From Mustelus asterias (Eukaryota), in the NCBI RefSeq assembly GCF_964213995.1, contig NC_135830.1, forward strand, positions 8,060,001 to 8,124,000: a DNA stretch of 64,000 nucleotides, written 5' to 3'. A program made the position numbers and the translations under genes. The stretch's first letter is position 1. Each line of letters starts with the position of its first letter. This document shows, piece by piece, positions 945 through 64,000 of the stretch. Under the pieces are notes generated by a model that was not told the DNA's origin, ran no database searches, and saw only the letters and a program-made list of their open reading frames with translations.

Positions 945-1061
945 TCTCCACTCATCTGACGACAGCTCGTGATATCCAATAACCCTGTTGGAATTTACCC
1001 TGGTGTTATGAGACTTCTTACTGTGCCCACCCCAGACCAACGTCGGCATCTCCACATCATA
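945..1061 (+). mobile_element. Decayed Penelope-terminus-derived short element
   Basis: aaccctgttgga...cctggtgttatgagacttcttactgtgcccaccccagaccaacgtcggcatctccacatcat matches the termini at 17744/21196, 53262, 56850 and 58117. Confidence 0.7.
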
Positions 1062-17139: not shown

Positions 17140-17798
17140 GGGTGACAGAAATGACAGCAAATCCGCCTCTCTGCAATGTTCAATTGTGCTGTCTAAGGAA
17201 GCACTGATTTGTGCTCAAACATTAATGCTTCATTCTTACCTTCCTGCGAATAATTTCAACCAAATATACTCAATATTTGTTTCATAGAATCATAGAATCA
17301 GTGCAGAAAAGGCCAATCGGCCCAACGAATCAGCAGCGACGCCAAAGTATCGTATCCAGGCCATTTCCCCCGTTTTCCCCACAACGCTACTCCTTTCCCA
17401 TGGCTAATCTATGTAACCAAGGGGCAATGTAGCATGCCCAATCCACCTTGGATCTTCATTCAATCTTCAATATCAACAGAGTTATTTAATATATATGTCC
17501 AAATTCTGAATTTAACATCTCTGGAATATACAATCGGTCTGACTGCATTGTTCAGCTCCGCTCTTTTGCTGCAGATTCGAATGGTTGGACTGAGAGTCCA
17601 TGTACCTCAGTGCAAGAAGACAACCGCTCCTTTCAACGTGATGTCTCAACTTGTCTCGAATTTCAAAATTTAAAAGCGTTCTTCGGACAAATGTCAAAGG
17701 GAGCAAAGATTTCTGCTCAATCATGAATGCATCATTCTCATATTAAGAAGTTTAACAACACCAGGTTAAAGTCCAACAGGTTTATTTGGTAGCAAAAG

Positions 17799-17843
17799 CC
17801 ACACAAGCTTTCGGAGCTCTTAGCCCCTTCTTCAGGTGAGTGG
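17799..17843 (-). ncRNA. Minimal type I hammerhead ribozyme motif in PLE terminal repeat
   Basis: Reverse complement CCACUCAC-CUGAAGA-A-GGGGCU(AAG)AGCUCC-GAAA-GCUU-GUGUGG: CUGANGA and GAAA cores, a 6-bp stem II, a palindromic AAGCUU stem III and stem I CAC/GUG. Confidence 0.75.
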
Positions 17844-20800
17844 GAATTCTGTTCACAAACAGAGCTTATAAAGACACAGACTCAATTTACATGAATAATG
17901 GTTGGAATGCGAATACTTACAACTAAATCAAGTCTTTACGAAACGAAACAATGTGAGTGGAGAGAGCATCAAGACAGGCTAAAAAGATGTGTATTGTCTC
18001 CAGACAAGACAGCCAGTGAAACTCTGCAGGTCCACGCAACTGTGGGAGTTACAAACAGTGTGACATGAACCCAATATCCCGGTTGAGGCCGTCCTCGTGT
18101 GTGCGGGACTTGGCTATCAGTTTCTGCTCAGCGACTCTGTGCCGTCGTGTGTCGCGAAGGCCGCCTTGGAGAACGCTGACCCGAATATCAGAGGCCGAAT
18201 GCCCGTGACCGCTGAAGTGCTCCCCAACCGGAAGAGAACAGTCTTGCCTGGTGATTGTCGAGCGGTGTTCATTCATCCGTTGTCGCAGCGTCTGCATAGT
18301 TTCCCCAATGTACCATGCCTCGGGACATCCTTTCTTGCAGCGTATCAGGTAGACAACGTTGGCCGAATTGCAAGAGTATGTACCGTGTACCTGGTGGATG
18401 GTGTTCTCACGTGAGATGATGGCATCTGTGTCGATGATCCGGCACGTCTTGCAGAGGTTGCTGTGGCAGGGTTGTGTGGTGTCATGGTCACTGTTCTCCT
18501 GAAGGCTGGGTAGTTTGCTGCGGACAATGGTCTGTTTGAGGTTGTGTGGTTGTTTGAAGGCAAGAAGTGGGGGTGTGGGGTTGGCCTTGGCGAGATGTTC
18601 GTCTTCATCAATGACATGTTGAAGGCTCCGGAGGAGATGCCGTAGCTTCTCCGCTCCGGGGAAGTACTGGACAACGGAGGGTACTCTGTCCACTGTGTCC
18701 CGTGTTTGTCTTCTGAGGAGGTCGGTGCGGTTTTTCGCTGTGGCGCGTTGGAACTGTTGATCAATGAGTCGAGCGCCATATCCTGTTCTTATGAGGGCAT
18801 CTTTCAGCGTCTGGAGGTGTCTGTTGCGATCCTCCTCATCCGAGCAGATCCTGTGTATACGGAGGGCTTGTCCGTAGGGGATGGCTTCTTTAACGTGTTT
18901 AGGGTGGAAGCTGGAGAAGTGGAGCATCGTGAGGTTATCCGTGGGCTTGCGGTACAGTGAGGTGCTGAGGTGACCGTCCTTAATGGAGATGCGTGTGTCC
19001 AAGAATGCAACCGATTCCAGAGAGTAGTCTATGGTGAGCTTGACGGTGGGATGGAACTTGTTGATGTCATCATAGAGTTGTTTCAGTGATTGTTCACCAT
19101 GAGTCCAAAGGAAGAAAATGTCATCGATGTATCTAGTGTATAGCATCGGTTGAAGGTCCCGTGCGGTGAAGAAGTCTTGTTCGAACCTGTGCATGAAGGT
19201 GTTGGCATATTGAGGTGCGAATTTGGTCCCCATGGCTGTTCCGTGTGTCTGGATGAAGAACTGGTTGTTGAAGGTGAAGATATTGTGGTCCAGGATGAAG
19301 CGGATGAGATGTAAAACTGCATCTGGAAACTGGCAGTTGTTGGCGATGAGCACTGAGGCCGTTGCAGCAATGCCATCGTCATGGGGGATGCTGGTGTAGA
19401 GTGCCGAGACATCCATTGTGACGAGGAGCGCTCCTGGTTCAACTGCTCCATGTGTGCCGAGTTTCTGTAGGAAGTCCGTCGTGTCGCGACAAAAGCTGGG
19501 GGTTCTTTGTACAATGGGTTTCAGGATGCCCTCGACATAGCCGGAGAGGTTCTCGCACAGGGTCCCATTGCCCGATACGATGGGACGGCCGGGTGTGTTC
19601 GCCTTGTGTATCTGCGGGAGGCAGTAGAGATCTCCAACGCGGGGAGTACGTGGGATGAGAGCACGGAGGGTTTTCTGAAGGTCCGGATCAAAGGTCTTGA
19701 TCAGAGTGTTGAGTTGACGGGTGTGTTCTTTGGTCGGATCTGCAGGTAACTGTCTCGTTGTTGAGTTGTCGGTACACTTCTTTGCAGTAATCCGTTCTGT
19801 TCAGTATGACGATGGCCCCTCCTTTGTCTGCTGGTTTGATGACAATGTTGCGGTTGGTCTTGAGAGCGTGGATGGCGTTACGTTGTGCTTGGGTGATCTT
19901 CGGGGCTGTCTTGTGAGTGCGGCTGATGAATTTGGTGTTGACGCACCTCCTGACGGCTTGGGCATACATGTCAAGTCGAGGGCAGCGGCCTTCCGGAGGA
20001 GTCCAATTCGACTCTTTCCTCTTCGGATGCACTGCGGATCTCTCTGTCAGCTGTTCCGGTTCATTGGCTGTCTCATTGTGTTCGCTGTTGGCCTCTTGGG
20101 GTTTGTGGAAGAACTCCCTCAGCCTCATTCGCCTGATGCTGAAAGATGCCCTCATAAGAACAGGATATGGCGCTAGACTCATTGATCAACAGTTCCAACG
20201 CGCCACAGCGAAAAACCGCACCGACCTCCTCAGAAGACAAACACGGGACACAGTGGACAGAGTACCCTTCGTTGTCCAGGACTTCCCCGGAGCGGAGAAG
20301 CTACGGCATCTCCTCCGGAGTCTTCAACATGTCATTGATGAAGATGAACATCTCGCCAAGGCCATCCCCACACCCCCACTTCTTGCCTTCAAACAACCAC
20401 ACAACCTCAAACAGACCATTGTCCGCAGCAAACTACCCAGCCTTCAGGAGAACAGTGACCATGACACCACACAACCCTGCCACAGCAACCTCTGCAAGAC
20501 GTGCCGGATCATCGACACAGATGCCATCATCTCACGTGAGAACACCATCCACCACGGTACATACTCTTGCAATTCGGCCAACGTTGTCTACCTGATACGC
20601 TGCAAGAAAGGATGTCCCGAGGCATGGTACATTGGGGAAACTATGCAGACGCTGCGACAACGGATGAATGAACACCGCTCGACAATCACCAGGCAAGACT
20701 GTTCTCTTCCTGTTGGGGAGCACTTCAGCGGTCACAGGCATTCGGCCTCTGATATTCGGGTAAGCATTCTCCAAGGCGGCCTTCGCGACACACGACAGCG

Positions 20801-21095
20801 CAGAGTCGCTGAGCAGAAACTGATAGCCAAGTTCCGCACACACGAGGACGGCCTCAACCGGGATATTGGGTTCATGTCACACTATTTGTAACTCCCACAG
20901 TTGCGTGGACCTGCAGAGTTTCACTGGCTGTCTTGTCTGGAGACAATACACATCTTTTTAGCCTGTCTTGATGCTCTCTCCACTCACATTGTTTCGTTTC
21001 GTAAAGACTTGATTAGTTGTAAGTATTCGCATTCCAACCATTATTCATGTAAATTGAGTCTGTGTCTTTATAAGCTCTGTTTGTGAACAGAATTC

Positions 21096-21140
21096 CCACT
21101 CGCCTGAAGAAGGGACTTAGAGCTCCGAAAGCTTGTGTGG
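21096..21140 (+). ncRNA. Minimal hammerhead ribozyme motif (second PLE arm)
   Basis: CCACUCGC-CUGAAGA-AGGGACUUAGAGCUCC-GAAA-GCUUGUGUGG; one mismatch in stem II relative to the left arm. Confidence 0.65.
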
Positions 21141-21764
21141 CTTTTGCTACCAAATAAACCTGTTGGACTTTAACCTGGTGTTGTTAAACTTCTTACCAGA
21201 CTTAACTAACCCATTAGAAATCCATTCAATAATTCCATTCTCACAAACTCATTAATTATTCTCTCAGACAGTGAGTGAGACAGGGAAAAGCAGCAATCTT
21301 CCAGCCCCCACTCTCCAAACATCCCCTGCCAGCAAAAAGGACTGACGACTTAGCTGTGTCTGTTTTTTATGAAATGGTGAAGAGTAAATTTTTAAAATTT
21401 CGATTGATACCCAATTCAGTTCACATTTAACAATAAACTTGAATTCGGAAACTTCAGCGCAGTGAGTTTTGACAACATTTCTGCCCCGTTTAGCGCCTGG
21501 GACCTGCGCAAATATGAATAGAATGTGATTATCCCTTCAATACACAAAGTCCGCTCAGGATAAAAGCGACTAGATGGTCAAACAGTGCCGTCTGATTTAA
21601 CTTTATAACCTGATTTGTGGAAGTACATTTCGGCTAAAAACCCTTTTTCATGCGGCAGCGAAATTCATCTAACATTAGAATCAGTAAATGACATTTGTGC
21701 CATTTTTTCTCTTTTACCATGTCTGGGTGGGCGTGGGGGGGGCGGTTGGCGGTAGGGGGGAGGG

Positions 21765-46880: not shown

Positions 46881-47277
46881 TTCAACCATGTTAAATTCTA
46901 ACATGTGACTGGAGCTTTATTTTAAAAATTAATGTTGGATTCACCTACATGCTTGTGGAAGCTGCATAGCTGGCAGGAATTGTCTGAACTAAGAATTTCT
47001 TCTATGAATTTGATCAGTTGGAGGACATTATATTCTGTCAAATCTGGCTCAAGAATAAGGTTGATTGCTCAGTTCAAGTAAGAAGGAAAGCTATTGGCTT
47101 GCAGCAAGTGTCTTTTCGAACCAGGATATCTTGTATTAACCTTATTCAGTTGTGGGACATGGGCGTCGCTGGCTGGCCAACATTTATTGCCCATCCCTAG
47201 ATGCCCTTGTTCAGAGGGCAGTTGAGAGTCAACCACATTGTATGAACCAAATGTGTTCATTAAATATTACTGTATTT

Positions 47278-49668
47278 AGAACAAAGAAAGTTACAGCACA
47301 GGGACAGGCCCTTTAGCCCTCCAAGCCTGCTGCCGGACTAAATTAAAACCCCCTACCCTTCCGGGGACCATTTCCCTCTATTCCCATCCTATTCATGTAT
47401 TTGTCAAGATGTCCCTTAAAAGTCACTACCGTATCCGCTTCCACTACCCCCCAGGCAACGAGTTCCAGGAACCCACTGCTCTCTGTGTAAAAAATCTGCC
47501 TCGTACATCTCCTTTAAACCTTGCCCCTCACACCTTAAACCTGTGTCCCCTAGTAATTGACGCTTCCACCCTGGGAAACAGCTTCTGACTATCCACTCTG
47601 TCCATGCCTCTCATAATCTTGTAGACTTCTATCAGGTCGCCCCCTCAACCTCCCTCATTCCAGTGAGAACAAACCAAGTTTCTCCAACCTCTCCGCATAG
47701 CTAATGCCCTCCATACCAGGCAACATCCGGGTAAATATTTTCTGTACCCTCTCCAAAGCCTCCACATCCTTCTGGTAGTGTGGCGACCAGAATTGAACAC
47801 TATATTCCAAGTGTGGCCTAACTAAGCTTCTCTAAAGCTGCAACATGACTTGCCAATTTTTAAACTCAATACCCCAGCCAATGAAGGAAAGCATGCCGTA
47901 TGTCTTCTTGACTACCTTCTCCGCCTGCATTGCCACTTTCAGTGACTGTGTACCTGTACACCCAGATCCCTTTGCCGACCAATACTCCTAAGGGTTTTGC
48001 CATTTACTGTATATTTCCTATCTGTATTAGACCTTCCAAAATGCATTACCTCACATTTGTCCAGATTAAACTCCATCTGCCATCACTCCGCCCAAGACTC
48101 CAACCAATCTATATCCTGCTGTATCCTCTGATGGTCCTCATCACTATCCGCAAATCCACCAACCTTTGTGTCGTCCGCAAACTTCCTAATCAAACCAGTT
48201 ACATTTTCCTCCAAATCATTTATATATATATATAACAAACAACAAGGTCCCAGCACTGATCCCTGAGGAACGCCACTTGTCACAGCCCTCCATTCAGAAA
48301 CGCACCCTTCCACTGCTACCCTCTGTCTTCTTTGACCGAGCCAGTTCTGTATCCACCTTGCCAACTCACCTCTGATCCCATGCGACTTCTCCTTCTGCAC
48401 CAGTCTACCATGAGGGACCTTGTCTAAGTCCATGTGGACAACATCCACTGCTCTACCCTTATCAATCATCTTCGTCACTTCCTCGAAAAACTCGACCAAG
48501 TCCGTGAGACACGACCTCCCCTTCACAAAACCATGTTGCCTCTCACTAATACATCCACTTATTTCCAAGTGGGAATAAATCCTGTCTCGAAGAATTCTCT
48601 CCAATAATTTCCCTATCACTGATGTAAGGCTCACCAGCCTGTAATTACCTGGATTATTCTTGCTACCCTTCTTAAACAAAGGAACAACATTGGCTATTCT
48701 CCAATCCTCTGGGACCTCCCCTGTATGATGTGGAGATGCCGGCGTTGGACTGGGGTAAACACAGTAAGAAGTTTAACAACACCAGGTTCCTCTGGCTCCA
48801 CACATAGATTCCCTCCCCTATCCTTGAGTGGGCCGACCCTCTCCCTGGCTACCCTCTTGTTCTTTATATATGTATAAAAAGCCTTGGGATTTTCCTTAAT
48901 CCCGCTGGCCAATGATTTTTCGTGACCACTCTTAGCCCTCCTTACTCCTTGCTTAAGTTTCTTTCTACTTTCCTTGTATTCCACACTTGCTTCGTGTGTT
49001 CCTCCCCTGTAGCCAGTGAGGATACAAAGATCTCTCTCAAGACCCCAGCAATTTCCTCCCTTGCCTCTCTCAGTATTCTGGGGTATATCCCATCAGGCCC
49101 TGGGGACTTGTCTACCTTAATGTTTCTCAAGAACCCCAATACCACCTCCTTTTTGATCTCAACATGACTCAAACTATCTACACATCCTTTCCCAGACTCA
49201 TCCACCACCAAATCCTCTTTGGTGAATTCTGACGCAAAGTACTCATTTAATATCTCCCCATTTCCTCTGGCTCCGCGCATAGATTCCCTCCCTTGTCCTG
49301 GAGTGGGCCAACCCTCTCCCTGGCTACCCTCTTGCTCTTTATATATGTATAAAAAGCCTTGGGATTTTCCTTAATCCTGCTGGCCAATGCTTTATCGTGA
49401 CCCCTTTTAGCCCTCCATTCTCCTTGCTTAAGTTTCTTTCTACTTTCCTTGTATTCCACACTTGCTTCGTGTGTTCCCAGCCTCCTCGCTTTGACAAATG
49501 TTTCGTTTTTCTCTTTGACGAGGCTCACAATATCTCTCATTATCCAAGGTTCCCAAAACTTGCCATACTTATCCTTCACCCTTACAGGAATGTGCCGGTC
49601 CTATCAGCTTACAGTTGAAAGCCTCCCACATGCCAGATGTTGATTTGCCCTCAAACATCTGCCCCATC
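47278..49668 (-). mobile_element. Degraded CR1 LINE with internal chimeric insertion
   Basis: ORFs 48083..48679, 48942..49280 and 49247..49579 carry CR1 motifs. An insert at 48726-49000 is bounded by cctcccctgta repeats. Confidence 0.9.
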
Positions 49669-50424
49669 TGGTAGCTATTTATTAGCAACCAGACATTAAC
49701 AGACGAGAAATTAATGAGCCTTAATTGAGTTATAGTTAATCAATGAATCAGTCGTCATAGTAAAAGATTGAGTTTTATTTGCTGTAAAAGTTTAATTGCT
49801 GTGGATGTAAAGAATGTGCAATGAGGATAAATGTACTGGCGAGAGAGACCTTCAAGCTCTGATTAGCCTCAACATTTGAAACTGTGAGAATAAGGGATTG
49901 TATCGAATCAGATAAAGGGATAGTATGAACCAGTTCTCTTGTATTCCTGTCTAAGATAATGAGAGAAGGTGGTGTCAGTAATTGAGGATCCAGTTAAATT
50001 AATCTAGTGGTCAAATTGACCAATTGTCATGATACAACAGGCCCAAATCTGACGTGAGGTAATCGTCACTTTGTGGATAAAAGTAGAGGTTCTGAAGGTC
50101 TTCCTTGGGAGCCAAATACTGAAAACTCCCGAGGCTGAGTTCCAAGGAAATTACTGTCAGAGAAGGAACCAGACTCCCAAGGCTGAATTCCACATGAATT
50201 CCTGTGAAAGAAGGAGCCAGAGAGGGTTATGCTTCTACGGACCGATCACCTGCATGAAGTTGTAAAAGTCAATATCTTAAAGTTGTTGAGTAAAACTTTT
50301 TCATTCAGGAAACTTCTTTTTAAATTTCCTATCCAGAGAATTCTGCCTTTACCACAAAAAGGGCAGGGAACAGGCTACAGATGAATTAAAGAGAAACCAT
50401 TTGTGTCCAGAACATTGTGAATAT

Positions 50425-51160
50425 CAAAGAACAACAAAGAACAAAGAACAATACAGCACAGGAACAGGCCCTTCGGCCCTCCAAGCCCGCGCCGCTCCCC
50501 GGTCCAGGATTGAATCCTGAATCCAGGATCCCCGCCCAATTTTCCAGCCTATCTACATACCAATATCCTATCCACCGAGCTGTCCCTCACAGCTACGATG
50601 CTTTGTTCATTACAACCTATTAACTCACCCCCACCCCCCCATTCCAGACAATGTGATCTCCAGGGAGAGGCGAAAACCCAGAGTGAAAAACCCCAGGGCC
50701 AATATGGGGAAAAAAATCTGGGAAATTCCTCTCCGACCCCCTGAGGCGATCGAAACGAGTCCAGGAGATCACAATGGCCCTGATCGGGAAATGCTTCCCA
50801 ACCCTAGTCATTTCCACTTCCACGAACACCATATGAATTCCCTGCCCCCGAGACAGGTTCCCAACTATCCGCAGTCTCGCTCTGTACTGGCACCAGCAAG
50901 ATAATCATAGAATGAAGCCTTGAAACGAGAAACAAGGAACAATTAGCCCGCGCCGCTCCCTGGTCCAGACTAGACCACTCTTTTGTATCCCTCCATTCCC
51001 ACTCCGTTCATATAGCTGTCTAGATAAGTCTTAAACGTTCCCAGTGTGTCCGCCTCCACCACCTTGCCCGGCAACACATTTCAGGCCCCCACGACCCTCT
51101 GTGTGAAATATGTCCTTCTGATATCTGTGTTAAACCTCCCCCCCTTCACCTTGAACCTAT
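50425..51160 (-). mobile_element. CR1 3' end with long 3'UTR
   Basis: (TTCTTTG)n tail; reverse complement FTQRVVGA*NVLPGKVVEADT; internal ~24-bp direct repeat agcccgcgccgctccc(c/t)ggtccag. Confidence 0.75.
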
Positions 51161-52833
51161 CCTTTTACTCTGGTTGTCTTTGATGCTCAAGTCATTTTCT
51201 GATTGTTTTAACCATGTTCTGTTTCATTAATAAACTTTGATCAGTAAAATATTTGATTGTTCTGGACTTTTCCTGATGAGATTGATGCACTTTAGGGAAA
51301 GTGGGTGAGAGGGGTTGGCAGGCTCTTTAACAGAAAGTGAGTCCCTCTAAGGTAATTGGCAAAGGAGCCAGAGGGGGAGATGAGATTTTATTTTATATTT
51401 TTGACACAGCGAGTTGTTCTGATCTGCCTGAAAACAGATTCAATAGAATCTTTCCAAAGGTTAAAGACTTGAAAGGGAAGAATTTGCAGGGCTGTGGGGA
51501 CAGATCAGAGTGGTAGGATGAATCAGACAGTCCTTTCAAAGAGATAGCAGGGGCACGATGGGCTGAATGGACTCTTCCTGCAGCCTGTCAATCTCAGCCT
51601 CCTGCTTTTGTGCAGGTTAAAAGGGACAGATTTCATTGCAGCCTCTTCCCTGTATCTGTATTTAAAGAGACAGGTTTCTCTTTAGCTCTGAGTGACTGAT
51701 ATAACAATTGGTTGGAGGCCCATTTCCCAGTCAGTCCTCCAGCACCTTCCTGTCTCTCTATTAGTGCGACGCCCAGGGCAGTTTCCCAACTGGGGCGCAG
51801 GCCCCATTATTCTCAGCTAAGTTCAGCCCTCAGCTCCGTCGCCTGGCTGTCATTGACACGAGCAATAGAGAGACAGAAAGGTGCCCCAGGCTCAAATGGG
51901 AAATCAAAACTCGGGGCTTTAAATGAACTGTTAGGATCTCTGTAACGATCAACAATTTAAAAAAAAGAATTCTAAGCCCAGTGAGTAAATTAAAGAATCA
52001 CACGACAAAACTTCAAGTTTCTGGCGTTTATTCCAACAAACTGGAAGCAACAATGACTAAACACTTTTTTGAAGGGAACATTGCTCTTAAACTTAAAATT
52101 AAACTTTGCCCTTTTACTCTTAACACCATCAAATATCCCACTCAACCGTTATATTTTATTCTGCCTTGGAATGTTCACACTCTTTCTCCAAAAACCAGTC
52201 CAAAGTGATTCTTTCCTCCCCAAGGGTTTATTTCCATTGTTTTCCTTTTCCAGTCTGGCAACCTTTAATCCCAGAACTGTCCTTCACAGTGATGGTTCTC
52301 CTGGACATTTTCCCACTAACACAAGCAAGGCGAATCTTCCAGCCTTGTTTCACAATCCTCAGGAATTTGTGACCAACATTCAACACCGGAGCAGATGTAG
52401 GTCATTTGGCCCTTTGAGTCGGCTCCACCGTTTATTTAGGTCATGGTTGATCTGTTTGTGTGGAGTTCCACATTCTCGTTCTAGACCCAATACTTTTGAT
52501 TCTCTTACCCAACAAGAATTGGGATAAAGGCAAAATTCTGCTGTTGTTGGAATCTGAAACAAAAACAGAAAATGCTGGACAATCTCAGCAAGTCTGACAG
52601 CATCTGCAGAGAGAGAATAGACACAGCATTTTGAGTCAGGATGACCCTTTGTCAGAACTGAAGACAAGGAAAATCGGACATAATTTATACTGTGAGGGTC
52701 AAGAATTGGGAAGCAATCTATTAAACCTCCTCTGAACCACTTTCAATGCATTTGTATCATTTCTTAAATAGGAGACAAAGCTGCACCCAGTATTCAAGAT
52801 GCAGTCTCCGTAATGCCCTGTATAACTGAAGCA

Positions 52834-53383
52834 TAGTAAGAAGTTAAATGGGATTATATTCATTGGAGTTTAGGAGGTTGAGGGGAGATCTGATAGAGAC
52901 TTACAAGATAATGAACGGCTTAGATAGGATGGACGTAGGGAAGTTGTTTCCATTAGCAGGGGAGACTAGGACGCGGGGGCACAGCCTTAGAATAAAAGGG
53001 AGTCACTTTAGAACAGAGATGAGGAGAAATTTCTTCAGCCAGAGAGTGGTAGGTCTGTGGAATTCATTGCCACAGAGGGCTGTGGAGGCCGAGACGTTGA
53101 GCGTCTTCAAGACAGAAATTGATAAATTCTTGATTTCTCGAGGAATTAAGGGCTATGGGGAGAGAGCGGGTAAGTGGAGTTGAAATCAACCATGATTGAA
53201 TGGTGGAGTGGACTCGATGGGCCGAATGGCCTTACTTCCGCTCCTATGTCTTATGGTCTTAAACAACACAGGTTAAAGTCCAACAGGTTTATCTGGTAGC
53301 AAATAAACCTGTTGGACTTTAACCTGGTGTTGTTAAACTTCTTACTGTGTTTACCCCAGTCCAACGTCGGCATCTCCACATCA
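52834..53383. mobile_element. PLE-derived palindromic mini-element (split by CR1)
   Basis: ggttaaagtccaacaggtttat...ataaacctgttggactttaacc inverted repeat. The flanking ataact(g/a)aagca duplication looks like a TSD. Confidence 0.7.
52848..53261 (+). mobile_element. Young CR1 3' end (same family as 14296 and 29902) inserted in a PLE mini-element
   Basis: ORF 52848..53183 is essentially identical to the C-terminus of the other two copies. It is flanked by agtaagaagtt and aacaacacaggttaaagtcc. Confidence 0.93.
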
Positions 53384-55157
53384 TAACTAAAGCAGAACAT
53401 CTTTACTCCTGTGTTCAATTTCTCTCATAATAAAGGATAACATTCCATTTGTAAGAACTTTGATTTATTTGAACTAAGATTTATGGGGGTTCTCTTGTTT
53501 ACAATAACTCCATAACTGTAAATCACACCAGGTTCCAGTGACTTAACCAAATGGCAAGAAAGAACACTTTAAATCGTGAATTCAGAAAGTTTATTAATCA
53601 TTAAAAATGTAACAAGTCAGAAAGATAAAACAGAGTGTTGATTAACAGTGAATAGAGAAAGAATAGAAAAATGTTGAAAGCCCATCTTAGCCAATTCCCA
53701 TAAATCTTCAATTATAAACTAAAATAGACATGAGTTTTCAGATGATTTGAAAAGAAATGAATTGTCTGCTGAAAGGGTTAACTTTTCTACAGAACCTAAA
53801 GGGATGGGGAGTGAGCAGAAAAAAATTGGCACACAATAATACCACTTTACACAAGTAAAAAAATCAAAACAAACTAGATTGTAAACTTCAGCTCTTCATT
53901 TTTTTGTTATATTCCATAACCTAATTATTTTAATTTGATCAGTTTTTTTAGGGATGGATAACTTCTGTTCTTTATAAACTGCTTCACTCATTTTGTTGAT
54001 TCTACATGGGCTCGGAGAATCAGAACCCAGACTTTATCATCCTTATCCTTTTTCCCCTTTTGCCACCACTCCCTCTGTTTTGCAGGAAGGTCGTAGGGAT
54101 TCCAATCAGAACTAATCATTTTATCATAAAAGTTAAATACTGCGGATGCTGGAATCTGAAACAACAACAGAAAATGCTGGAAAATCTCAGCAGGTCTGAC
54201 AGTATCTGTGGAGACAGAATAGAGTCAATGTTTAAAGTATGGATGACCCTTCATAAGAGCGGTTATGAAGTGTCTTCCAGACTCGAAATGTTGGCTGTAT
54301 TCTCTAATAATTTTATCGATACGTTTCTTGTTCTTAGTTTCCAATTAGCAGGTAAGAGACCTATCCAGTCCTCACTCGAGCTCTGATTTTTTCACTGGCC
54401 ATGCTTGAGTCAGTTTATAACCATTAGAATCTACTCAGAGGTCTGCTTTTCAGTCCAGTGCTATTTGGAGTATACCGTTACTTCACCGACTAACGGGTCA
54501 CAAGTCCCTCAAAGTTCTTATCACAAATTTGGGATAAAATAATTTAAACAATGCCTGAGAATGCTTTTTAACTTCTTAACCAACTATCTCCCACTGTTTG
54601 TTGATTGGTCAGACCTTCTCTTCACAGATTCGGGTATCTCAGCCACTGAACACCAGCCGGTCCTGGAATAAGTTTAATTCTAACTCATTCTGAGTAAATA
54701 TTCTCACCAGGTCCTCTGTTGGGCACTAAGCAGCTTTAATGGTCCGTGATTGCAGAAACTGAGCAGTCACAGGAATGTGGTCAAGATAGTCCAGTCCCAT
54801 AATGCCTCACATTCAATCTGCAGTCCTTCAATTATAACAGAATATGTGGCTGTATGTAGCTGCCTCGGCCATGGTCAACCCCAACACTGCCTTCCTGAAC
54901 TGTTACAATGCCTGAGGTGTAAGTAAGCCGACAGTGCTGTTAGGGAGGGATTTCCAGCTACATATTCCAGACTTTCACTGGACTGTAGATGGATACCAGA
55001 TTGACATATTCCATTCAACCACTCCCAAGGTGAGTTATTCCAATTCCTTTATTGTCCAGGACAATATATTCACAATATCATTAAAACAGGAATTAAACAT
55101 TCCCATTTGGTTTCAGGTTCTAACATATTCTGTTAGTTTGTTCTTTATTGTCAATGT

Positions 55158-55452
55158 CAGGCTGGGGTTGTTTCCCTTGGAGCAAAGGAGGTTGAGGGGA
55201 GATTTGATAGAGGTGGACAAGATTCTGACAGGTTTAGATAAGGTGGACAAAGAAAAGCTGTTCCCATTAGCTGATGGGACAAGGACAAGGGGGACACAGA
55301 TTTAAAGTTTCAGGTGAGAGATGTAGGGAGGGATGTGAGGAAGAAAATGTTGATGCAGCGAATGGTAATGACCTGGAACTCGCTGCCTATGAGGGTGGAG
55401 GAAGTGGAGACAATAAACAATTACAAAGGAAATTGGATGGGCATCTGGGGGA
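55158..55452 (+). mobile_element. Old CR1 3' fragment
   Basis: LGLFPLEQRRLRGDLIEVDKILTGLDKVD. Confidence 0.75.
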
Positions 55453-55711
55453 GTTTCAAACAGAAATGCTGACTAAATATCTCTGAATTTCCTCACACCC
55501 GGTCACTCTGTGATCCGTGTGAAATTTGAAACCAGGTATTCACAACAAGACTCAAAGAGCATCAGCCCACTGGAGGCAAAGTTGTGAGACCGGCCAGTCC
55601 AGCAGAAAGAAACCCTCTGACCCTCCCCATTGACCAACTGTGAGAATGAACAAAATGCAGTCCTGGATGTAACTGAGAGCAGAAACAATAACAGCAGAAT
55701 CCCACCCCTGT

Positions 55712-57050
55712 GAACTTGTTGGTGCCTCAGCAGCTGTGATGAAATTCTGAACACTTTTTATACACTGAGCAGGTGGACAGTTTCTCCCCAGTGTAACTTC
55801 ACTGATGTCTCAACAGGTGGGATAACTGAGTGAATTCCTTCCCACACTGAGAGCAGGTGAATGGTCTCTCTCCATGTGAATTCGCTGGTGTCTCTGCAGG
55901 TTGGATAACTGACTGAAACCCTTCCCACACTGAGAGCAAGTAAATGGCCTCTCCCCAGTATGAACTCGCTGGTGTCTCCGCAGGTGGGATGACTGAGTGA
56001 ATCTCTTCCCACACTGAGAGCAGGTGAACGGCCTCTCTCCAGTGTGAACTCGCTGGTGTTTCTGCTGGGTGGATAACTGACTGAAACCCTTCCCACACTG
56101 AGAGCAGGTAAATGGTCTCTCCCCAGTGTGAACTCGCTGGTGTGTCTGCAGGTCGGATGACCGAGTGAATCTTTTCCCACACTGAGAGCAGGTGAATGGC
56201 CTCTCCCCAGTGTGAATTCGCTGGTGTGTCCGCAGGTCGGATGACCGAGTGAATCCCTTCCCACACTGAGAGCAGGTGAATGGCCTCTCCCCGGTGTGAA
56301 CTCGCTGATGTGTCCGCAGGTCGGATGACCGAGTGAATCTCTTCCCACACTGAGAGCAGGCGAATGGCCTCTCCCCAGTATGAATTCACATGTGTGTCCA
56401 TAGATTGGATAACTGGTTGAATTCCTTCCTACACCGAGAGCAGGTGAACGGCCTCTCCCCAGTGTGAATTCGCTGGTGTCTCTGCAAAGTGGATAACACA
56501 GTGAATCCCTTTCCACACTGAGAGCAGGTGAACGGTCTCTCTCCGGTGTGAACTCGCTTGTGTGACTGCAGGCTGGGCAACAGAGCAAATCCCTCCCCAC
56601 ACTGAGAGCAGATGAATGGCCTCTCCCCAGTGTGGCTGCGCCGATGAGCATCCAGCAGAGAGGGGGCTCTGTATCTCTTCCCACAGTCTGCACATTTCCA
56701 TGGTTTCTCCATGGTGCAGGTGTCCTTGCCTCTCCCTTGGGTGGCCAATCAGTTGAAGCCTTGTCCACACACAGAACACGGGTACCGTCTCTCCCTGCTG
56801 TGAATGGTGTGATATTTATTCAGGCTGTGTAACTGGTTAAAGCTCTTTATGTGGAGATGCCGGCGTTGGACTGGGGTAAACACAGTGGCTTTTGCCACCA
56901 AATAAACCTGTTGGACTTTAACCTGGTGTTGTGAGACTTCTTACTAAAGCTCTTTAGTCAGTGCACTGGAACACTCTCACTCGGGTGTGGCAGTGTGTTG
57001 CTGCTTTTCCACTCACTGATGGCCGAAGTCTTTTCAAATCCAAGTGGAAG
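55712..57050 (-). pseudogene. Tandem C2H2 zinc-finger gene, disrupted
   Basis: [14 protein letters not shown]...HTGERPF repeats. In-frame TGA at 56386-56388, a later frameshift, and a PLE mini-element at 56850-56944 inside the exon. Confidence 0.88.
56850..56944. mobile_element. 95-bp PLE-derived mini-element with 12-bp TSD
   Basis: TSD taaagctcttta at 56838-56849 and 56945-56956; the body is made of PLE terminal sequences. Confidence 0.85.
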
Positions 57051-57059
57051 GTTCAATCT

Positions 57060-57545
57060 GAAGCTCAGTGGCCAACTTCCGCATTGAGACGTCACAATGG
57101 AGCGCTGCCTGAATCAGCCAATAGGAATTACTCGGCTCCGCAGTGACGTGTCGGGGTTCCATGGCGCAGGCCCGGCTCGCGGACCCGGGAGCCCCGCCCC
57201 CGCCCATTGTTCCTCCTCCACCTGCACCTCCTCCATTCACGGTTTCCAGGCAACCGGCTGGCGGCTCCGGCCAGAGCGAGAAGCCGCTCGGTGATCTCCC
57301 CCTCTCCCCTCTCTGCGGCTGCTGCTCCAAAAAGAGAGCGGGAGCGACCGCTGGCGGCAGCCGCAGTGCGCCTGCTCCGGACCGCTCGGCTCAGCAGCGC
57401 TCTCTGCGCCTGCTCCGGACAGCTCGGCTCAGCAGCGCTCTCTGCGCCTGCTCCGGACAGCTCGGCTCAGCAGCGCTCTCTGCGCCTGCTCCGGACAGCT
57501 CGGCTCAGCAGCGCTCTCTGCGCCTGCGTGCTGGGCTGCCAGCTG
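57060..57545. promoter_or_regulatory. CpG-rich candidate (bidirectional) promoter between divergent ZNF genes
   Basis: High GC and CpG content; CRE-like gacgtca (~57088) and tgacgtg (~57143); CCAAT (57118); GC boxes ccccgcccccgccc; NRF1-like TGCGCCTGC. Confidence 0.6.
57368..57527. repeat. 38-bp GC-rich minisatellite, 4.2 copies
   Basis: gcgcctgctccggacagctcggctcagcagcgctctct starts at 57368, 57406, 57444, 57482 and 57520 (partial). Confidence 0.95.
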
Positions 57546-57639
57546 AGGGAGTGGGGGAGGGGACTTTGCAAAATCTGTTCCCATCATTTTCTTCCAAGTC
57601 TCGCAGTTTGATTTGAAACAGAACAGCTTCTGTTTGTAG

Positions 57640-57773
57640 CTTCACCACAGACTCCAACTTCACCACAGACTCAAACTTCACACACAGACTCAAACTTCAC
57701 ACACAGACTCAAACTTCACCACAGACTCAAACTTCACCACAGACTCAAACTTCACCACAGACTCAAACTTCAT
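57640..57773. repeat. 18-19-bp minisatellite, ~7 copies
   Basis: (cttcac(a)cacagactcaaa)n. Confidence 0.93.
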
Positions 57774-58116
57774 CCTCTGGACAACATCTGTGAGGAAAAC
57801 ACTTTCTTTCTCCCCCTGGGAAATACAGAGACAGAGAAATTCTCTGGAACTGGAATTAGAGCCAATATACTGAGGGGGAAACTGTGATTTTGTGGAACCT
57901 GTTTTTATTGTCTGAGCTTTTTAAAGTGTAATTTATCCTGTCTGTTCAAATAATGTTTCTAAATGCATGATTCAGTGATGTTAATTTTAGATTAATTTTT
58001 AAAATGAAACATTGTCTTTCAGTTTATTCCATTGGGATTTGTGGGAATTTGTTTATTATAAGGTGACCATGAGGATCGTAATAACATTGATATGTCTGGT
58101 GTTATATGGTGCATAT

Positions 58117-58316
58117 GATGTGGAGGTGCCGGTGTTGGACTGGGGTGGGCACAGTAAGAAGTCTCACAACACCTGGTTAAAGTCCAAATGGTTTATTTGG
58201 AATCACGAGCTTTCAAAGCGCTGCTCCTTCTCACCTGATGAAGGGGCAGTGCTCTGAAAGCTTGTGATTCCAAATAAACCTGTTGGACTTTAACCTGGTG
58301 TTGTGAGACTTCTTAC
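58117..58316. mobile_element. 200-bp PLE-derived foldback mini-element with hammerhead motif and 14-bp TSD
   Basis: TSD tatatggtgcatat at 58103-58116 and 58317-58330; inverted arms; HHR motif UCAC-CUGAUGA-AGGGGCAGUGCUCU-GAAA-GCUU-GUGA at 58231-58267. Confidence 0.85.
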
Positions 58317-58661
58317 TATATGGTGCATATTAGGTATATTATTTATGGATTTGTATTACAGTTGATGTTGTTTAATTCCAGAATAGTATTGTAACTACAC
58401 TGTATATTTTCCAGTCAAAGAGTCAGCAGAGCACAAGATAAATCAATTCAGCAGCTTGAGTCCGTGCCAAGTCTCTGTCGGGGAATCCACTCAGTGCCAT
58501 TTTTCCTCGATATCCCTGTTCCCCAGTACGTTTCATTCCTTCAAGTGCCCGACCAATTTTATTTTGAAATCACTGGTCGTCTCCACTTCCACCACTCTCA
58601 TCATCAGTGAGTTCCAGAACATGATTGCTTGCCCCCTCAGTCAAGTTCTTCCGCACCCATC

Positions 58662-58860
58662 TATCATAGAATCATAGAAACCCTACAGTACAGAAAGAGG
58701 CCATTCGGCCCATCGAGTCTGCACCGACCACAATCCCACCCAGGCTCTACCCCCATATCCCTACATATTTTACCCACTAATCCCTCTAATCTATGCATCC
58801 CAGGACACTAAGGGGCAATTTTAACATGGCCAATCAACCTAACCCGCACATCTTTGGACT
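58662..58860 (-). mobile_element. tRNA-derived SINE 3' part
   Basis: atcatagaatcatagaaaccctacagtacagaaagaggccattcggcccatcgag, near-identical to 63719-63910. Confidence 0.8.
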
Positions 58861-59220
58861 TTAATCTCTAATCATGTATCTCTAATCATGTAATAGAGTT
58901 CTGAATATTGCATACATTTTTAGTACACTAAATATGCAAATTTTTTATATGCTTAGACACAAGCCTGTGTGAAGATTTCAGGAATATGTGTCCTGTACAT
59001 GAAACAGTCGGCACGGATCTGTCGATTAGGATGAATCAGCACCCTCAGGACAATGTCTATTTCAGGTCCAGCAAAGTGAGAATGGAGGGAGAGTGTTTGG
59101 GATAAAGGTTTACAAATTTTCAAGAATGAGAGGAAAGAATGTTCCACAGAAACTAGAATTGTCTGTTCTGAGTTTTTATCCTGTACTGACAGCAATGATT
59201 TTTGTGAATTTCTTTCACAG

Positions 59221-60529
59221 GCTATTAGAAGGGGAGAATTTACAGACACAAATCTCAACAAACATGACGTTAGGATCTGACAGAGTCACACAATTATTCT
59301 GGATCTGAATACCATCGGCATTTGAAACTGGAATGGGAAATGTTTGTCTGTTCCTTCAAACTGTTTAAACATCAGTGTGACTGGAAAATCACTGAGACAC
59401 AGATACTCAAGTGAGAGTATTCCAGTGAACTGACTGTGGAAAGAGCTTTAACCAGTTACACAGCCTGGAAAAGATTGAAGGATTCACAGTGAGGAGAGAC
59501 CATGTATGTGTTATCTATGGGGTCAAACCTTCATCTGAACCTGGAGTTGTACAAAGACACTCAGACCATGGAAATGTAGGGACTGTGGGAAGGGATTCAA
59601 TTGTCCCTCGAAGCTGGAAACCCTTCGATGCAGCCACACTGTGGAGACACTGTTCACCTGCTCTGAGTTTGGAAGGGGATTTCGTGATTCATCCACCCTG
59701 AGGAATCACCAGCAACTTCACATCAGGGAGAGGCCATTCAGCTGCTCTGAGTGTGGGAAGAAATTCAGCGATCCGTCTGCCCTGCTGACACACCAGCGGG
59801 TTCACAATGGGGAGAGACCATTCACCTGTTGTGTGTGTGGAAAGGGATTCACTCAGTCATCTACCCTGCAGAACCACCAGCGATTTCACACGGGTGAGGG
59901 ACTGTTCCCCTGCTCAGAGCGTGGGAAGGGATTCACTCACTCATCCCTCCCGCTGACAAACCAATACATTCACACTGGGCCGAGGCCATTCATCTGCTCC
60001 GAGTGTGGGAAGGGATTCACTCAATTATCTAGTCTGCTGAGACACAAACGATTACACACTGGGGAAAGGCCATTCATCTGATGTGTGTGTGGGAAGTGAC
60101 TCAGTCAATCATCCAGTCTGCTGGAATACTGAGGCACCTCCCCCAATAAGAAACCTGTTCAATGCTCTGACTGTGGGAGCTGCTTTAAAACCTGAGCCTA
60201 CCTGAGGGTCGACCAGCGCATTCACACTGAGGAGACCCCGTTCAGGCACTCTCACTGTGCAAAGAGGGTTAGAACATCATCTGACCTACTGAAACATCAG
60301 GGAATTCACACTGGGGAGAGACCCTGATAATTCCCACTCACTTTCAGCGATTTCTCCTAAAACCTACCAGATTGGAAGCTTCTGCCTGAAATGTTATTTT
60401 CCCTTAGTTTCCAAACTGAGACCATTCACCTGCTCAGTGTGTGGGAAAGGATTCACTTGTTCACCCAAGCTGCTGAGACACCATGGCAGTCACACCCATT
60501 AGTGATCTTTTGGATGCTCTGACTGTGGC
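59221..60529 (+). pseudogene. Tandem C2H2 zinc-finger pseudogene
   Basis: Acceptor tctttcacag at 59211-59220; ORF 59641..60081 has CSECGKxF/HTGERPF; multiple stops and frameshifts. Confidence 0.85.
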
Positions 60530-61010
60530 TGTTAATTATACCAATAGAGGTTAAGTTTATTCAGATGGAGGGCACTGATTAGATAGTTATAATGAGCAGG
60601 TAAAAAGTGGGACTCACTAATATAGTTTGGAGTCAGAGTTGAACCTGTAATGTTTGATTCTGTGAACAAATCTAGACCAAATAAAGATTGACTCCACCCC
60701 AAGGCTGTCAGGATTATAACATGGTAACAGAAAATGCTTGTCTAATGGTGAAGGTTGGAAACTAAAAGAAAGTATATTTCAGACGGAAGCTTCCAATCCC
60801 AGCAGCTTTTGTGAGAAATGACTGAAAGGCAGTGGGAATTGTCAGGGTCTGATTACCTGCTGATGCTCTCGGAGTCTGAACCATACAACCAGTGGAAGAA
60901 TGAAGTGGCGATGTGGACACGGGTTACATCCCGATCAAGGAGGAAACAAGATCTGGCCTTGGCATTGTCACTTCCTAACACAAGGAAAATCAGCAACAAA
61001 GCATTTTCTG
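60530..61010 (+). mobile_element. LTR retrotransposon relic: LTR (60530-60721), PBS, gag 5' end
   Basis: TG...CA ends with an internal AATAAA; PBS TGGTAACAGA (initiator-Met-like) at 60722; gag-like YNQWKNEVAMWTRVT...KQDLALALSLP. Confidence 0.65.
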
Positions 61011-63718
61011 ATCAGCCAAACTGCAAGTTGATAACTGCACTGGCACGGATGATTCATGTAAAGAATTCACTTCAGGTGGTTGGAGGGTAGAATCCCTGTC
61101 AATTGGTCTATGGGAGAAATCCCTAATTCCTCTCTGTGCCGGGCGATCGCCCTCCTGCTTTAAAGGGATACAATTAGTTCCATTTTCAGTCATCAATTAT
61201 CTGATTGTTCCATGAAAAGAATTGCTCGAAGCAACAAATTATTGGAGATACCAGAAGAGGGTTTCTTCATGTGTAACGTTTGGACTGAAGAAGAAAAACC
61301 ATCTTTTTCTTCGATTTGTTTTGAAACTGTTTGTGTGAATTTTTGCGATCCCGGTCAGGACTGTTAACGTTTGCAGAGAAATTCGAACACCCGGTGATTA
61401 ACTGAAAGAATTACATCACAAGATTCCACATTGTTAAACAAAAACAAACTTTACTGTATGTTTAAATAAAATTAAAAAGACAACACTACAAATTGAATAC
61501 AATAAAGATTTATGATATAAACCAAGTTCTATTTTTTTACCTCACCCCAAGAGTTTCATTATACTTAATGATATCTTGAAGGTTCATTCACTTCTGTTCC
61601 TAGGACCTCCCAAAGGTATGTCAAAGCTCTCCACAATTCACTTTAATTCTCCCCAGTACTCCAGATATTCTCCAAGCTCCAAGAGTTTATGGGAGACCAT
61701 CCATTATCTTTTCACGAAACAAGCCTCCAATTTTCCTTTAAGCTCTCAAACTGTGGACTCCTCAGTCCAAACATGGGCTTCACTGCATTCTTGCTGAGGG
61801 ATTTAAATGTTGGAAACACCCCTGGTTTCTAATGGTCCTCTAGGCTTCTAGTCCCACAGATGGTTCACAGCTCCTGATCCCACAATTGGTGGCTTCCAAG
61901 CTAACTGCAGACTGTCCGCTGGAACCAGGTCATTGATTGGAAAGGACTCAAAAGGTTACGGGGAAAAGGCAGGAGAATGGGATTGAGATTTATCAGCCAT
62001 GATCGAATGGCACAGCAGATTCGATGGGCCGAATAACCTAATTCTGCTCCTCTATCTTATGGTCTAATTCTAACCAAGGGTCCACCCTGAATCACATATC
62101 CCCATGGTAACAGAGACGATTGAATATCTAACAGATATTCAGCTTCAAAATTGGACCTTTTTACCTGAGCTCTGCATGAAGAATTCACCTAACAAAAACA
62201 GTGCAATAATTGTCAGTCCCAATGTCTCCAGCTAAAAGACCCAGCTGACCTTTTACAGTTCTTACCTCTCGAGTTTTGACTTCTTAAACCAACATGGGCC
62301 ATGCTTTGTGACTGCGAATTCCCTGAGGGTATTTTCATCAGATTCTCAATCCAGGTTTTCCATTTTTTAAAAGCAATTCTTGCAACTAATTCATATTTCT
62401 AAAACATAGGAATTATGAAATTAGATTTTTGTAACAAAAACAGGAAGAAATGAAAACGTATCACCTTCATAATATCCCATTTAGAATATTACAATATACA
62501 ACATGCTGTATATCTTAACAACAGCCATGATCTTATTGAATGGCGGAGCAGGCTCGAAGGGCCAAATGGCCTCCTCCTGTTCCTAAGTCCACTGTTTTCC
62601 TATGTTGATCTATCTTATAACCTGCAATAGACATAATAATCCCTCCATTGTCTACTTCACATTCACAAGTCCAGCTTGGTAACAGCACACTGCTGGGTTC
62701 CATGTCCAGGAATTCAGTCCACTGAAGATGGAAATTACTGCTTGCAGTCTTTTCTGAAAGTTTTCTTCTTACAATAATTATAGTCCAAAGTTCCTCCTGC
62801 AAAAGGAGAGTCTTCATTGCTGTTCATTTGTGAATTTTCAAGTTCTATTTTGAAAACAGTCTGTACAGAGTTCACATTTTGAAATTTATTTTCTTCCATG
62901 TTTGCAGTTTCTCCATTGTTTAAATCCAGAGAGAAAATTCCACTCAATTCCACATTTAAACCGACTTCTTCTTGCTCAGTTATAGCTGATTCCTTTATTG
63001 TCCAGGAGAGTTACCCCTCTCGCCCCCTCCCTGATCACCACCTCTGCAGAGTTTCCCCGATCACTAGCTCCCTCCCCCATCAGGACTCCTGCAGAGCTCC
63101 CCCCCCCAACCCCCTCCTCAATCACCACCCCTGCAGAATTTCCCAATCACCACTCCCTCCCCCAGGTCAGCTTCACCGCCCCACGGAATGACCCAGGGGT
63201 CCATTGGCGCCTCAAGGGAGGAGGGGGGCCTGGGGACAGTGCTGGGGCCTTCCACCCGGGGGATTCCAGCCGATGGGATGCAGGGCTTTCCGACTCCCCC
63301 TTTCCTGACACCGGTGCATCTCAAGAGCAGCAGGGTGAACAGCAAGGCAAGGATACATCCATATCACCAGGAAGACGGCTGGACCCCTCTAGGTCCCAGC
63401 TCTCCAGCAGACGCCTGTCAGGGGCATCACAGGCAAATGGGTGCGGAGTGCAGCTGGCTGCCTCCAGTTCTGATGTGCATCCTGGGGGGACGTGTTGATG
63501 TGGCGCTGGACCACGGGAGATGGAGATGTTGTGGGGTCGCCAGGAGGGCACGGGTGAAAGTCTATATGAGAAAGGTTTAGGGAATTGGGCTCGGTTGATG
63601 ATCACATCCACCTGTTTTATCGCACTGTTAACTATCGGCCCTTCGTGTTATTGCATTGTTAGTTTCACCAATAAATGTCCAAAGATGTGCAGGTTAGGTT
63701 GATTGGCCATACTAAATT

Positions 63719-64000
63719 GATCATAGAATCATAGAAACCCTACAGTGCAGAAGGAGGCCATTCGGCCCATCGAGTCTGCACCGACCACAATCCCACCCAG
63801 GCCCTACCCCCACATATTTACCCACTAATCCCACTAATCTACGCATCTCAGGACTCTAAGGGGCAATTTTTAACCTGGCCAATCAACCTAACCCGCACAT
63901 CTTTGGACTGTGGGAGGAAACCGGAGCACCCGGAGGAAACCCACGCAGACACGAGGAGAATGTGCAAACTCCACACAGACAGTGACCTGAGCCGGGAATC
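63719..64000 (-). mobile_element. tRNA-derived SINE (HE1/V-SINE-like), well preserved
   Basis: gggaggaaaccggagcacccggaggaaacccacgcagacacgaggagaatgtgcaaactccacacagacagtgac...gccgggaatc; runs off the window end. Confidence 0.85.

What the first reader, a model, noticed from the sequence alone, without database searches (positions are those of the whole stretch)
56838..58330. Family of short, TSD-flanked, foldback non-autonomous elements built from Penelope termini and hammerheads
Seen in sequence: at least five short insertions (945, 48726, 52834-53383, 56850, 58117) combine a constant end (tgatgtggagatgccggcgttggactgggg) with variable-length inverted copies of the Penelope terminus. Four have 11-14-bp target duplications. 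The 58117 copy has a well-formed hammerhead (stem I UCAC/GUGA, CUGAUGA, GAAA, palindromic AAGCUU) facing a partial inverted one, and the 56850 copy disrupts a ZNF exon. Inference: either a MITE-like, ribozyme-associated retroelement class mobilised by the GIY-YIG PLE, or stereotyped abortive PLE integrations that expose the inversion mechanism. This is the best candidate for an undescribed system in the window.
Basis: partly seen in the sequence, partly recalled or inferred. Interest (0 to 1): 0.7.

Follow-up and report, generated by a model that had tools for sequence, protein, structure and literature searches.

The report
Mirror-image stumps of a Penelope retrotransposon
These short DNA hairpins are truncated, back-to-back copies of a very abundant Penelope-type jumping gene, with centres that nearly always differ, so they are not a self-spreading family; they likely form when two DNA copies made from one RNA are joined at the landing site, and over a thousand sister copies begin exactly where the element's small ribozyme is predicted to cut.

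Summary
The five sites are real, but they are not a new non-autonomous class. The 'constant end' is the reverse complement of the 38-nt Penelope 'tail', the stretch just before the element's start codon. It has 46,993 exact copies in this genome.

Of 116 head-to-head pairs sampled, 105 have a tail at one end only. A target duplication was found in 89 of 107 (mostly 10-14 bp; 0 in shuffles). Sizes run smoothly from 84 bp to over 3 kb, and 94 of 98 junctions were unique in the sample. This architecture is published (PMC8557442, PMC3846280, PMC11167929).

The 58116 and 56850 stubs recur mostly as passengers of duplicated ZNF-cluster segments. Only two of the five sites are true fold-backs. The 56850 copy sits upstream of a stop codon and the ZNF start, so it breaks no reading frame.

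The family records mechanism: arm lengths correlate (rho 0.78). In one subfamily 1,169 arms start at the predicted hammerhead cut, against 104-156 at three nearby positions, and 0 of 29 partner arms pass it by more than 2 nt. The scan noted these stubs and the cut footprint before, on other DNA of this genome.

The parts
58116..58316 (+). 201-bp head-to-head PLE stub: tail (58116-58153, antisense) + antisense arm to about 58230 + sense arm 58230-58316 without tail
   Evidence: junction has 1-nt microhomology
58103..58115 (+). left target-site duplication of the 58116 stub (13 bp)
58317..58329 (+). right target-site duplication of the 58116 stub
58231..58267 (+). minimal type I hammerhead of the PLE pLTR; predicted cut after 58263; G10.1-C11.1 pair decayed to G-U in this copy
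   Evidence: sequence; family stem I pair 1 is C-G in 97 and U-A in 68 of 174 motifs; descriptor from PMC4209133
56850..56944 (+). 95-bp PLE stub: antisense tail (56850-56884), 2-nt shared GT, 60-nt sense terminus that starts within 2 nt of the predicted ribozyme cut
56838..56849 (+). left target-site duplication of the 56850 stub (12 bp; right copy 56945-56956)
55762..56712 (-). C2H2 zinc-finger run downstream of the 56850 stub; starts at Met 56712, in-frame stop at 56388; the stub lies 5' of an earlier stop (56751)
   Evidence: translation; 84-bp period
48726..49000 (+). tail + 25-nt antisense PLE arm (48726-48788) completed with a 216-bp copy of downstream host DNA (49262-49477); 11-bp target duplication
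52836..53383 (-). short fold-back stub with a 413-bp CR1-type LINE 3' end (52849-53261) inside the tail-less arm; 13-bp duplication with 2 mismatches
945..1059 (+). old single-orientation PLE 3' end with tail (1022-1059); no inverted arm and no target duplication found
17744..21196 (.). long head-to-head copy of the parent PLE (arm 17744-20131 on -, arm 20132-21196 on +); RT and C-terminal GIY-YIG with CX4CxxC linker; no tail and no target duplication found

Best explanation
The five sites are truncated insertions of an abundant endonuclease-bearing Penelope-like retrotransposon, and the mirror-image ones likely form when the enzyme nicks both DNA strands about 10-14 bp apart and primes two cDNAs on one RNA, which are then joined end to end. 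SHOWN in sequence: the element reads hammerhead - terminus - 38-nt tail - ATG of the ORF. Nearly all paired insertions have one tailed and one tail-less end, a 9-16 bp target duplication, arms from the same subfamily, correlated arm lengths and variable junctions. INFERRED, using the in vitro result for a related PLE (two reverse-transcription start sites bounding the tail, both strands nicked and extended; PMC11167929): one nick primes at the tail end next to the AUG and the other at the site 38 nt upstream. Both cDNAs run towards the RNA 5' end and stop early, at the ribozyme cut (60-62 nt), or just upstream of the ribozyme (about 95-105 nt, likely the RNA start). Host end-joining then fuses the two 3' ends by microhomology, short templated inserts or a patch copied from nearby DNA (as at 48726). 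The stubs are short because the same pLTR also forms the 5' end of the transcript. They are dead on arrival and spread further only as passengers of segmental duplication or, rarely, by local recopying.
For: Copy number: 46,993 exact tail 30-mers and 173,713 exact terminus cores. Tail position: L057 runs through the tail into the ORF start, and the bases after the tail lean to that sequence in 263 tails. Pairing: 52 of 67 tail-anchored sites with up to 6 kb read have an opposing terminus; 105 of 116 pairs have one tail, 7 none, 4 two. TSD: 89 of 107, of which 77 are 10-14 bp; 0 in three flank shuffles. Junctions in 98 clean pairs (18 of 116 dropped): 34 microhomology, 10 blunt, 54 with inserts; inner length 84-2,450 bp; two identical pairs only. 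Arm lengths: rho 0.78; 45 of 98 within 10 nt against 12 when permuted. Arm identity: median 97.5% within an insertion against 86% to other arms, 56 pairs. Ribozyme cut: 1,169 arms start at the predicted cut against 126 (3 nt upstream), 104 (6 nt upstream) and 156 (4 nt downstream). All 30 inspected are true arm ends; 29 have a partner and none passes the cut by more than 2 nt, against 31 of 59 control arms (Fisher p 1e-7). Local patches: 2 of 107 pairs (L010, L037) plus 48726.
Against: The chemistry is inferred from end products; no nicking, priming or cleavage was observed. 15 of 67 tail-anchored sites have no opposing terminus, and 15 more have one without a clear TSD. The long copy at 17744-21196 has neither tail nor TSD. 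Correlated arm lengths could partly come from later deletion of palindrome centres. The cut test used one subfamily and three control offsets, not the +/-1 and +/-2 neighbours; the downstream control allows 18 rather than 27 letter triples and pools subfamilies. The in vitro study used a Poseidon element, found ribozyme cleavage unnecessary, and saw no RNA-seq reads ending at the cut (PMC11167929). The sample comes mostly from the first 6 Mb of one contig and was mostly picked by an exact tail match, so it favours young, tailed copies.
Confidence: 0.8

Rival explanations
1. A true non-autonomous fold-back family (MITE-like or retrozyme-like): hairpin stubs are transcribed and re-inserted as units by the PLE enzyme.
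For: Exact junctions do recur: 350 copies of the 53383 junction, and 25 unrelated-flank copies of the 58116 junction among the first 30 listed. Two nearby pairs share a junction with different flanks. L233/L234 lie 1.8 kb apart and share a variant seen 0 times against 16 for the common form in the other loci. L019/L148 lie 1.1 Mb apart and are the only 2 copies of their junction. A hairpin RNA could in principle give either tail side, so mixed polarity alone does not exclude this.
Against: 94 of 98 junctions are unique and there is no size peak. The 350-copy junction sits on a 2-5 nt microhomology, spans at least three subfamilies with concordant arms, and has the tail left in 17 and right in 12 of 30; it is a few tenths of a percent of stubs. 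All 25 cluster copies of the 58116 junction that I checked share its TSD and at least one flank (19 share both), and 9 of 10 copies of the 56850 junction share flanks. The locally shared junctions have only 2 and 3 copies. No tandem hammerhead repeats were found at these sites.
Confidence: 0.07
2. Stubs are eroded remnants: long inverted insertions formed first, and their unstable palindrome centres were deleted later.
For: It explains near-equal arm lengths and the microhomology or templated scars. Microhomology deletions in PLE copies are reported in PMC3846280. Long head-to-head copies exist in this genome.
Against: DNA deletion has no reason to stop at the ribozyme cut (1,169 against 104-156), or to keep all 29 partner arms from passing it. 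Tail-only partners (56850; L243, L251, L264) and host-DNA patches have no palindrome to lose.
Confidence: 0.08
3. Self-priming or fold-back on an antisense template makes the inverted copy before integration, as proposed for Adineta Penelopes (PMC3846280).
For: It explains same-template arms and some perfectly palindromic junctions (for example L027, L048, L076).
Against: It predicts palindromic, nearly gapless centres, but 54 of 98 junctions carry inserts and many are asymmetric. It does not explain one tailed and one tail-less end, which matches the two start sites measured on sense RNA (PMC11167929). It does not explain arm ends at a sense-strand ribozyme cut.
Confidence: 0.05

Closest known systems
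EN+ Penelope-like element insertions with an inverted 5'-truncated copy and a one-sided 30-40 bp tail (PMC8557442 Fig. 2 legend and text; Adineta Pen2a/Pen2 in PMC3846280; D. virilis 34-bp repeat in PMC2377424)
   Same: Head-to-head inverted ends, tail at one end only, tail next to the ORF start, target duplication of about 10 bp (8-10 bp in Adineta), heavy 5' truncation, hammerhead in the pLTR.
   Different: Here the extreme short end of the range dominates (median 207 bp between the termini) at tens of thousands of copies, the TSD mode is 12-13 bp, and the tail lies wholly before the AUG.
Poseidon_Ac of the green anole studied in vitro (PMC11167929)
   Same: Two reverse-transcription start sites that bound the tail; both target strands cut and extended; minimal hammerhead upstream.
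   Different: Poseidon clade, whereas this element has the Neptune/Nematis linker motif. Its start sites lie inside the ORF. That paper saw no reads ending at the ribozyme cut, whereas arms here pile up at it.
Non-LTR retrozymes, proposed non-autonomous PLE derivatives (PMC7761336; bioRxiv 10.64898/2026.07.22.740005)
   Same: Short, non-coding, derived from PLE pLTRs, type I hammerhead.
   Different: Retrozymes are head-to-tail tandem repeats with a hammerhead in each unit and circular RNA. These stubs are head-to-head, carry at most one complete hammerhead per strand, and have no fixed unit.
L1 twin priming (recalled, not from a call)
   Same: Both target strands prime cDNA and give an inversion within a TSD.
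   Different: L1 twin priming copies non-overlapping parts of the RNA. Here both arms copy the same terminus, offset by the 38-nt tail.
MITEs (recalled, not from a call)
   Same: Short, inverted ends, TSD, high copy number.
   Different: MITEs have a uniform length and centre and symmetric ends, and move as DNA. These have variable centres and one extra tail.

Membership tests
EN+ Penelope-like elements | RT followed by C-terminal GIY-YIG endonuclease in the parent element | tested here: met
   [quoted passage not shown] Stub arms align to this element's 3' end.
EN+ Penelope-like elements | 30-40 bp tail, often at one end only | tested here: met
   38-nt tail; 105 of 116 pairs one-tailed; most loci were picked by a tail match
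EN+ Penelope-like elements | Inverted 5'-truncated copy next to the main copy, within a TSD | tested here: met
   52 of 67 tail-anchored sites have an opposing terminus; TSD in 89 of 107 pairs
EN+ Penelope-like elements | Minimal type I hammerhead in the pLTR | tested here: met
   174 motifs; first three stem I pairs kept in 168-170 of 174, with a C-G/U-A swap between subfamilies
Neptune clade | CX2-5CxxC linker between RT and EN (shared with Nematis) | tested here: met
   C-x4-C-x2-C before the GIY-YIG in both window arms; feature from PMC8557442
Neptune clade | Placement in an RT tree with reference PLEs | not tested
   No reference PLE proteins were held; Neptune rather than Nematis rests on the vertebrate survey in the 2026 preprint
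Non-LTR retrozymes | Head-to-tail tandem units, each with a complete type I hammerhead | tested here: not met
   No such array at the four sites within 44000-64000; the arms are head-to-head
Non-LTR retrozymes | Abundant circular RNA | not testable with these tools
   Only assembled contigs were available
MITE-like non-autonomous family | Uniform length and shared internal junction across dispersed copies | tested here: not met
   94 of 98 junctions unique; lengths 84-2,450 bp
MITE-like non-autonomous family | Same-junction copies have independent flanks and form one lineage | tested here: not met
   Cluster copies share TSD and flanks; dispersed copies span three or more subfamilies; no tree was built
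Catalogued Repbase/Dfam family | Match to an existing consensus | not testable with these tools
   No Repbase or Dfam library on hand

The most novel reading that the evidence does not exclude
The tens of thousands of stubs are a fossil read-out of the PLE integration reaction in a vertebrate germ line. Both arms are copied from one RNA molecule by two active sites. The weak minimal hammerhead really cuts in vivo and sets the 5' end of a few percent of templates. A second pile-up marks the RNA start. Finished stubs can be recopied into new nearby insertions with the tail switched to the other side, which would be the first step towards a fold-back non-autonomous family.
Probability: 0.55. Interest if true: 0.55.

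Novelty: new member of a known kind. Interest (0 to 1): 0.3.

Why it matters
As objects the stubs are ordinary PLE debris, and they should be annotated that way rather than as a new MITE or retrozyme. As a population they bear on two open questions named in the papers I read: how PLE inverted structures form, and whether the minimal hammerhead has a role (unknown per PMC7761336; dispensable in vitro per PMC11167929). Arm ends at the predicted cut, with partner arms capped at the same point, make both questions testable by counting genome copies and by one in vitro assay.

Tried and rejected
Rfam found only tRNAs at gathering scores in the window, and sub-threshold miRNA-hairpin hits on the 58116 fold-back; there was no hammerhead hit. 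The miRNA hits reflect the hairpin shape and were rejected.

No RNA holder on record was listed for 55700-58700. The runs laid were contigs whose RNA status is a guess, so expression, circular RNA and 5' ends could not be judged.

A hand-picked hammerhead alignment had badly chosen coordinates and was discarded; the motif count replaced it. The first tail-length script was off by one base and was corrected. The 'same/diff' column is shifted by one base; I read arm concordance from the printed letters. A Pfam scan of the ZNF stretch failed in one frame (0 families, wrong frame) and on stop codons in the other. The finger call rests on the translation and the 84-bp period.

My first argument, that tails on either side of one junction prove independent origin, was dropped: a hairpin RNA could give both.

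Seven full-text searches returned no paper whose listing or passages describe a shark fold-back PLE family or arm ends at the ribozyme cut. The library lacks most subscription journals, Repbase and Dfam. I read no supplements, and those of the preprint are closed; they could list a matching family.

Full report
Setting. The window is G000:C71:8060001-8124000 of a 3.68-Gb genome. It holds tRNA genes, zinc-finger arrays and CR1-type LINEs. That the host is a shark is my recollection from its repeats and the wording of earlier scan notes; no call of mine names it.

The observation. The 30-nt end occurs five times in the window and never in shuffles. Four sites have target duplications of 11, 13, 12 and 13 bp. 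The five are not alike. 58116-58316 is a full fold-back. 52836-53383 is a fold-back with a LINE fragment inside one arm. 56850-56944 is a tail facing a 60-nt arm. 48726-49000 is a tail and 25-nt arm completed by a 216-bp copy of DNA lying about 260 bp downstream. The site at about 945-1059 is a single old arm without a duplication that I could find.

The parent. [quoted passage not shown] By PMC8557442 (passages) that linker marks Neptune or Nematis; I built no tree. The 'constant end' is the reverse complement of 38 nt that follow the terminus directly. [quoted passage not shown] So the order is hammerhead, terminus, tail, AUG. The genome holds 46,993 exact tail 30-mers and 173,713 exact terminus cores.

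Family or one-off events. I examined loci mostly from the first 6 Mb of C1, most picked by an exact tail match. Of 67 tail-anchored sites with up to 6 kb read, 52 had an opposing terminus and 15 had none. Of 116 head-to-head pairs, 105 had one tail, 7 none and 4 two. With a slightly looser tail threshold, 89 of 107 had a TSD (77 of them 10-14 bp), against 0 in three shuffles. I dropped 18 pairs (no tail, two tails or long inserts). The other 98 ranged from 84 to 2,450 bp, with 34 microhomology junctions, 10 blunt and 54 with inserts; only two pairs shared a junction.

The window's own junctions, counted genome-wide. The 58116 junction has 133 matches. Of the first 30, 25 have unrelated flanks and several subfamilies. 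Of the 75 listed on C71 and small scaffolds I checked 25, the window's own copy included; all share this TSD and at least one flank, and 19 share both. The remaining 33 matches were not listed. The 56850 junction has 10 matches, 9 with the same flanks. The 53383 junction has 350 dispersed matches. It sits on a short microhomology, and the 30 inspected span at least three subfamilies with matching arms, tail left in 17, right in 12 and unscored in 1. There is therefore no amplified unit.

Against this reading. L233 and L234, 1.8 kb apart, share a junction and a private variant but have different TSDs and opposite tail sides. L019 and L148, 1.1 Mb apart, are the only two copies of theirs. Local recopying happens, either from a read-through RNA or as a DNA patch like those at 48726, L010 and L037. 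It did not lead to amplification.

Mechanism. PMC11167929 (parts 1-2 of 4 read) shows a PLE protein cutting and extending both strands and starting reverse transcription at two sites that bound the tail. One nick per start site gives exactly one tailed and one tail-less arm, head to head, inside a TSD. Three results point to one RNA template. Arm lengths correlate (rho 0.78; 45 of 98 within 10 nt against 12 permuted). Arms of one insertion are 97.5% alike against 86% to other arms (56 pairs). And where one arm starts at the predicted ribozyme cut, the partner never passes it by more than 2 nt (0 of 29, against 31 of 59 control arms). In one subfamily 1,169 arms start at the cut, against 126, 104 and 156 at +3, +6 and -4; all 30 inspected are true arm ends. 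The immediate neighbours were not counted, and the -4 control differs in stringency. A second pile-up lies 4-10 nt upstream of the ribozyme core (33 of 211 arms), likely the RNA start, since the pLTR is the promoter in D. virilis (PMC2377424, passages). Nicking, priming, cleavage and end-joining are inferred, not observed.

What is known. [quoted passage not shown] PMC3846280 (passages and Discussion) describes inverted pLTRs with a 31-bp tail and 8-10 bp TSDs, and proposes antisense self-priming. PMC4209133 (passages) describes the minimal hammerheads, thousands per genome, weak in vitro. Non-LTR retrozymes are tandem head-to-tail units (PMC7761336, passages; bioRxiv 10.64898/2026.07.22.740005, parts 1-3 of 5), which these stubs are not. 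Seven searches found no paper on arm ends at the cut; other listed papers were seen only as listings.

Earlier scan notes. Eight notes on other pieces of this genome reach the same reading; none lies near this window. I had listed the ribozyme-cut test in my notebook before reading them and ran it afterwards. The 'RNA start' reading of the second pile-up was prompted by one of them. They are not independent support.

Verdict. These are real features, a known PLE insertion architecture and not a new class. Interest is 0.3, carried by the mechanistic record in the family rather than by these five copies.

Noticed in passing
L192-L200 and L186-L190, L266-L285 (duplicates of window 56850 and 58116): Segmental duplicates of the same insertion carry different subfamily-diagnostic letters (two forms at the 56850 right end; L187 and L281 in the 58116 tail). 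This suggests gene conversion from other PLE copies or cDNA.
   Followed up: partly
L269, L279, L280: In three duplicates of the 58116 stub the left end is replaced by PLE coding sequence, as if a second PLE landed inside the stub's own terminus.
   Followed up: no
L233/L234 (G000:C1:460771, 462556) and L019/L148: Nearby insertions share a junction, and in one case a private variant, with different TSDs; the tail side is switched in the 1.8-kb pair.
   Followed up: yes
L236-L265: Among 30 arms that start at the ribozyme cut, 22 are the tailed arm; unexplained asymmetry.
   Followed up: no
L257 junction: A 51-nt junction insert resembles the ORF 5' region just downstream of the tail, so the RNA itself may serve as patch template.
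   Followed up: no
L004, L014, L020, L039, L086, L145, L160: A young subfamily carries an extra stretch of about 60 bp at 309-325 nt from the terminus, at the ORF end.
   Followed up: no
window 55700-58700 and scaffolds C71, C87-C183: The unit of ZNF array, GC-rich upstream region and 58116 stub is duplicated roughly a hundred times in a ZNF/tRNA cluster; the 56850 stub marks a sub-lineage of nine.
   Followed up: partly
window 14296-15857, 29905-31463, 52849-53261: Three copies of a young CR1-type LINE, 98.5-99% identical; one sits inside a PLE stub arm.
   Followed up: no
window 4327-36667: Eleven tRNA genes or pseudogenes, several in repeated units of about 1.2 kb; a 298-bp palindrome at 3988-4285 lies just before the first.
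   Followed up: no
L047 tails, tally: The 7 bases beyond the tail lean towards the ORF's first bases, which suggests priming by microhomology with the target or a spread of start sites into the ORF.
   Followed up: partly
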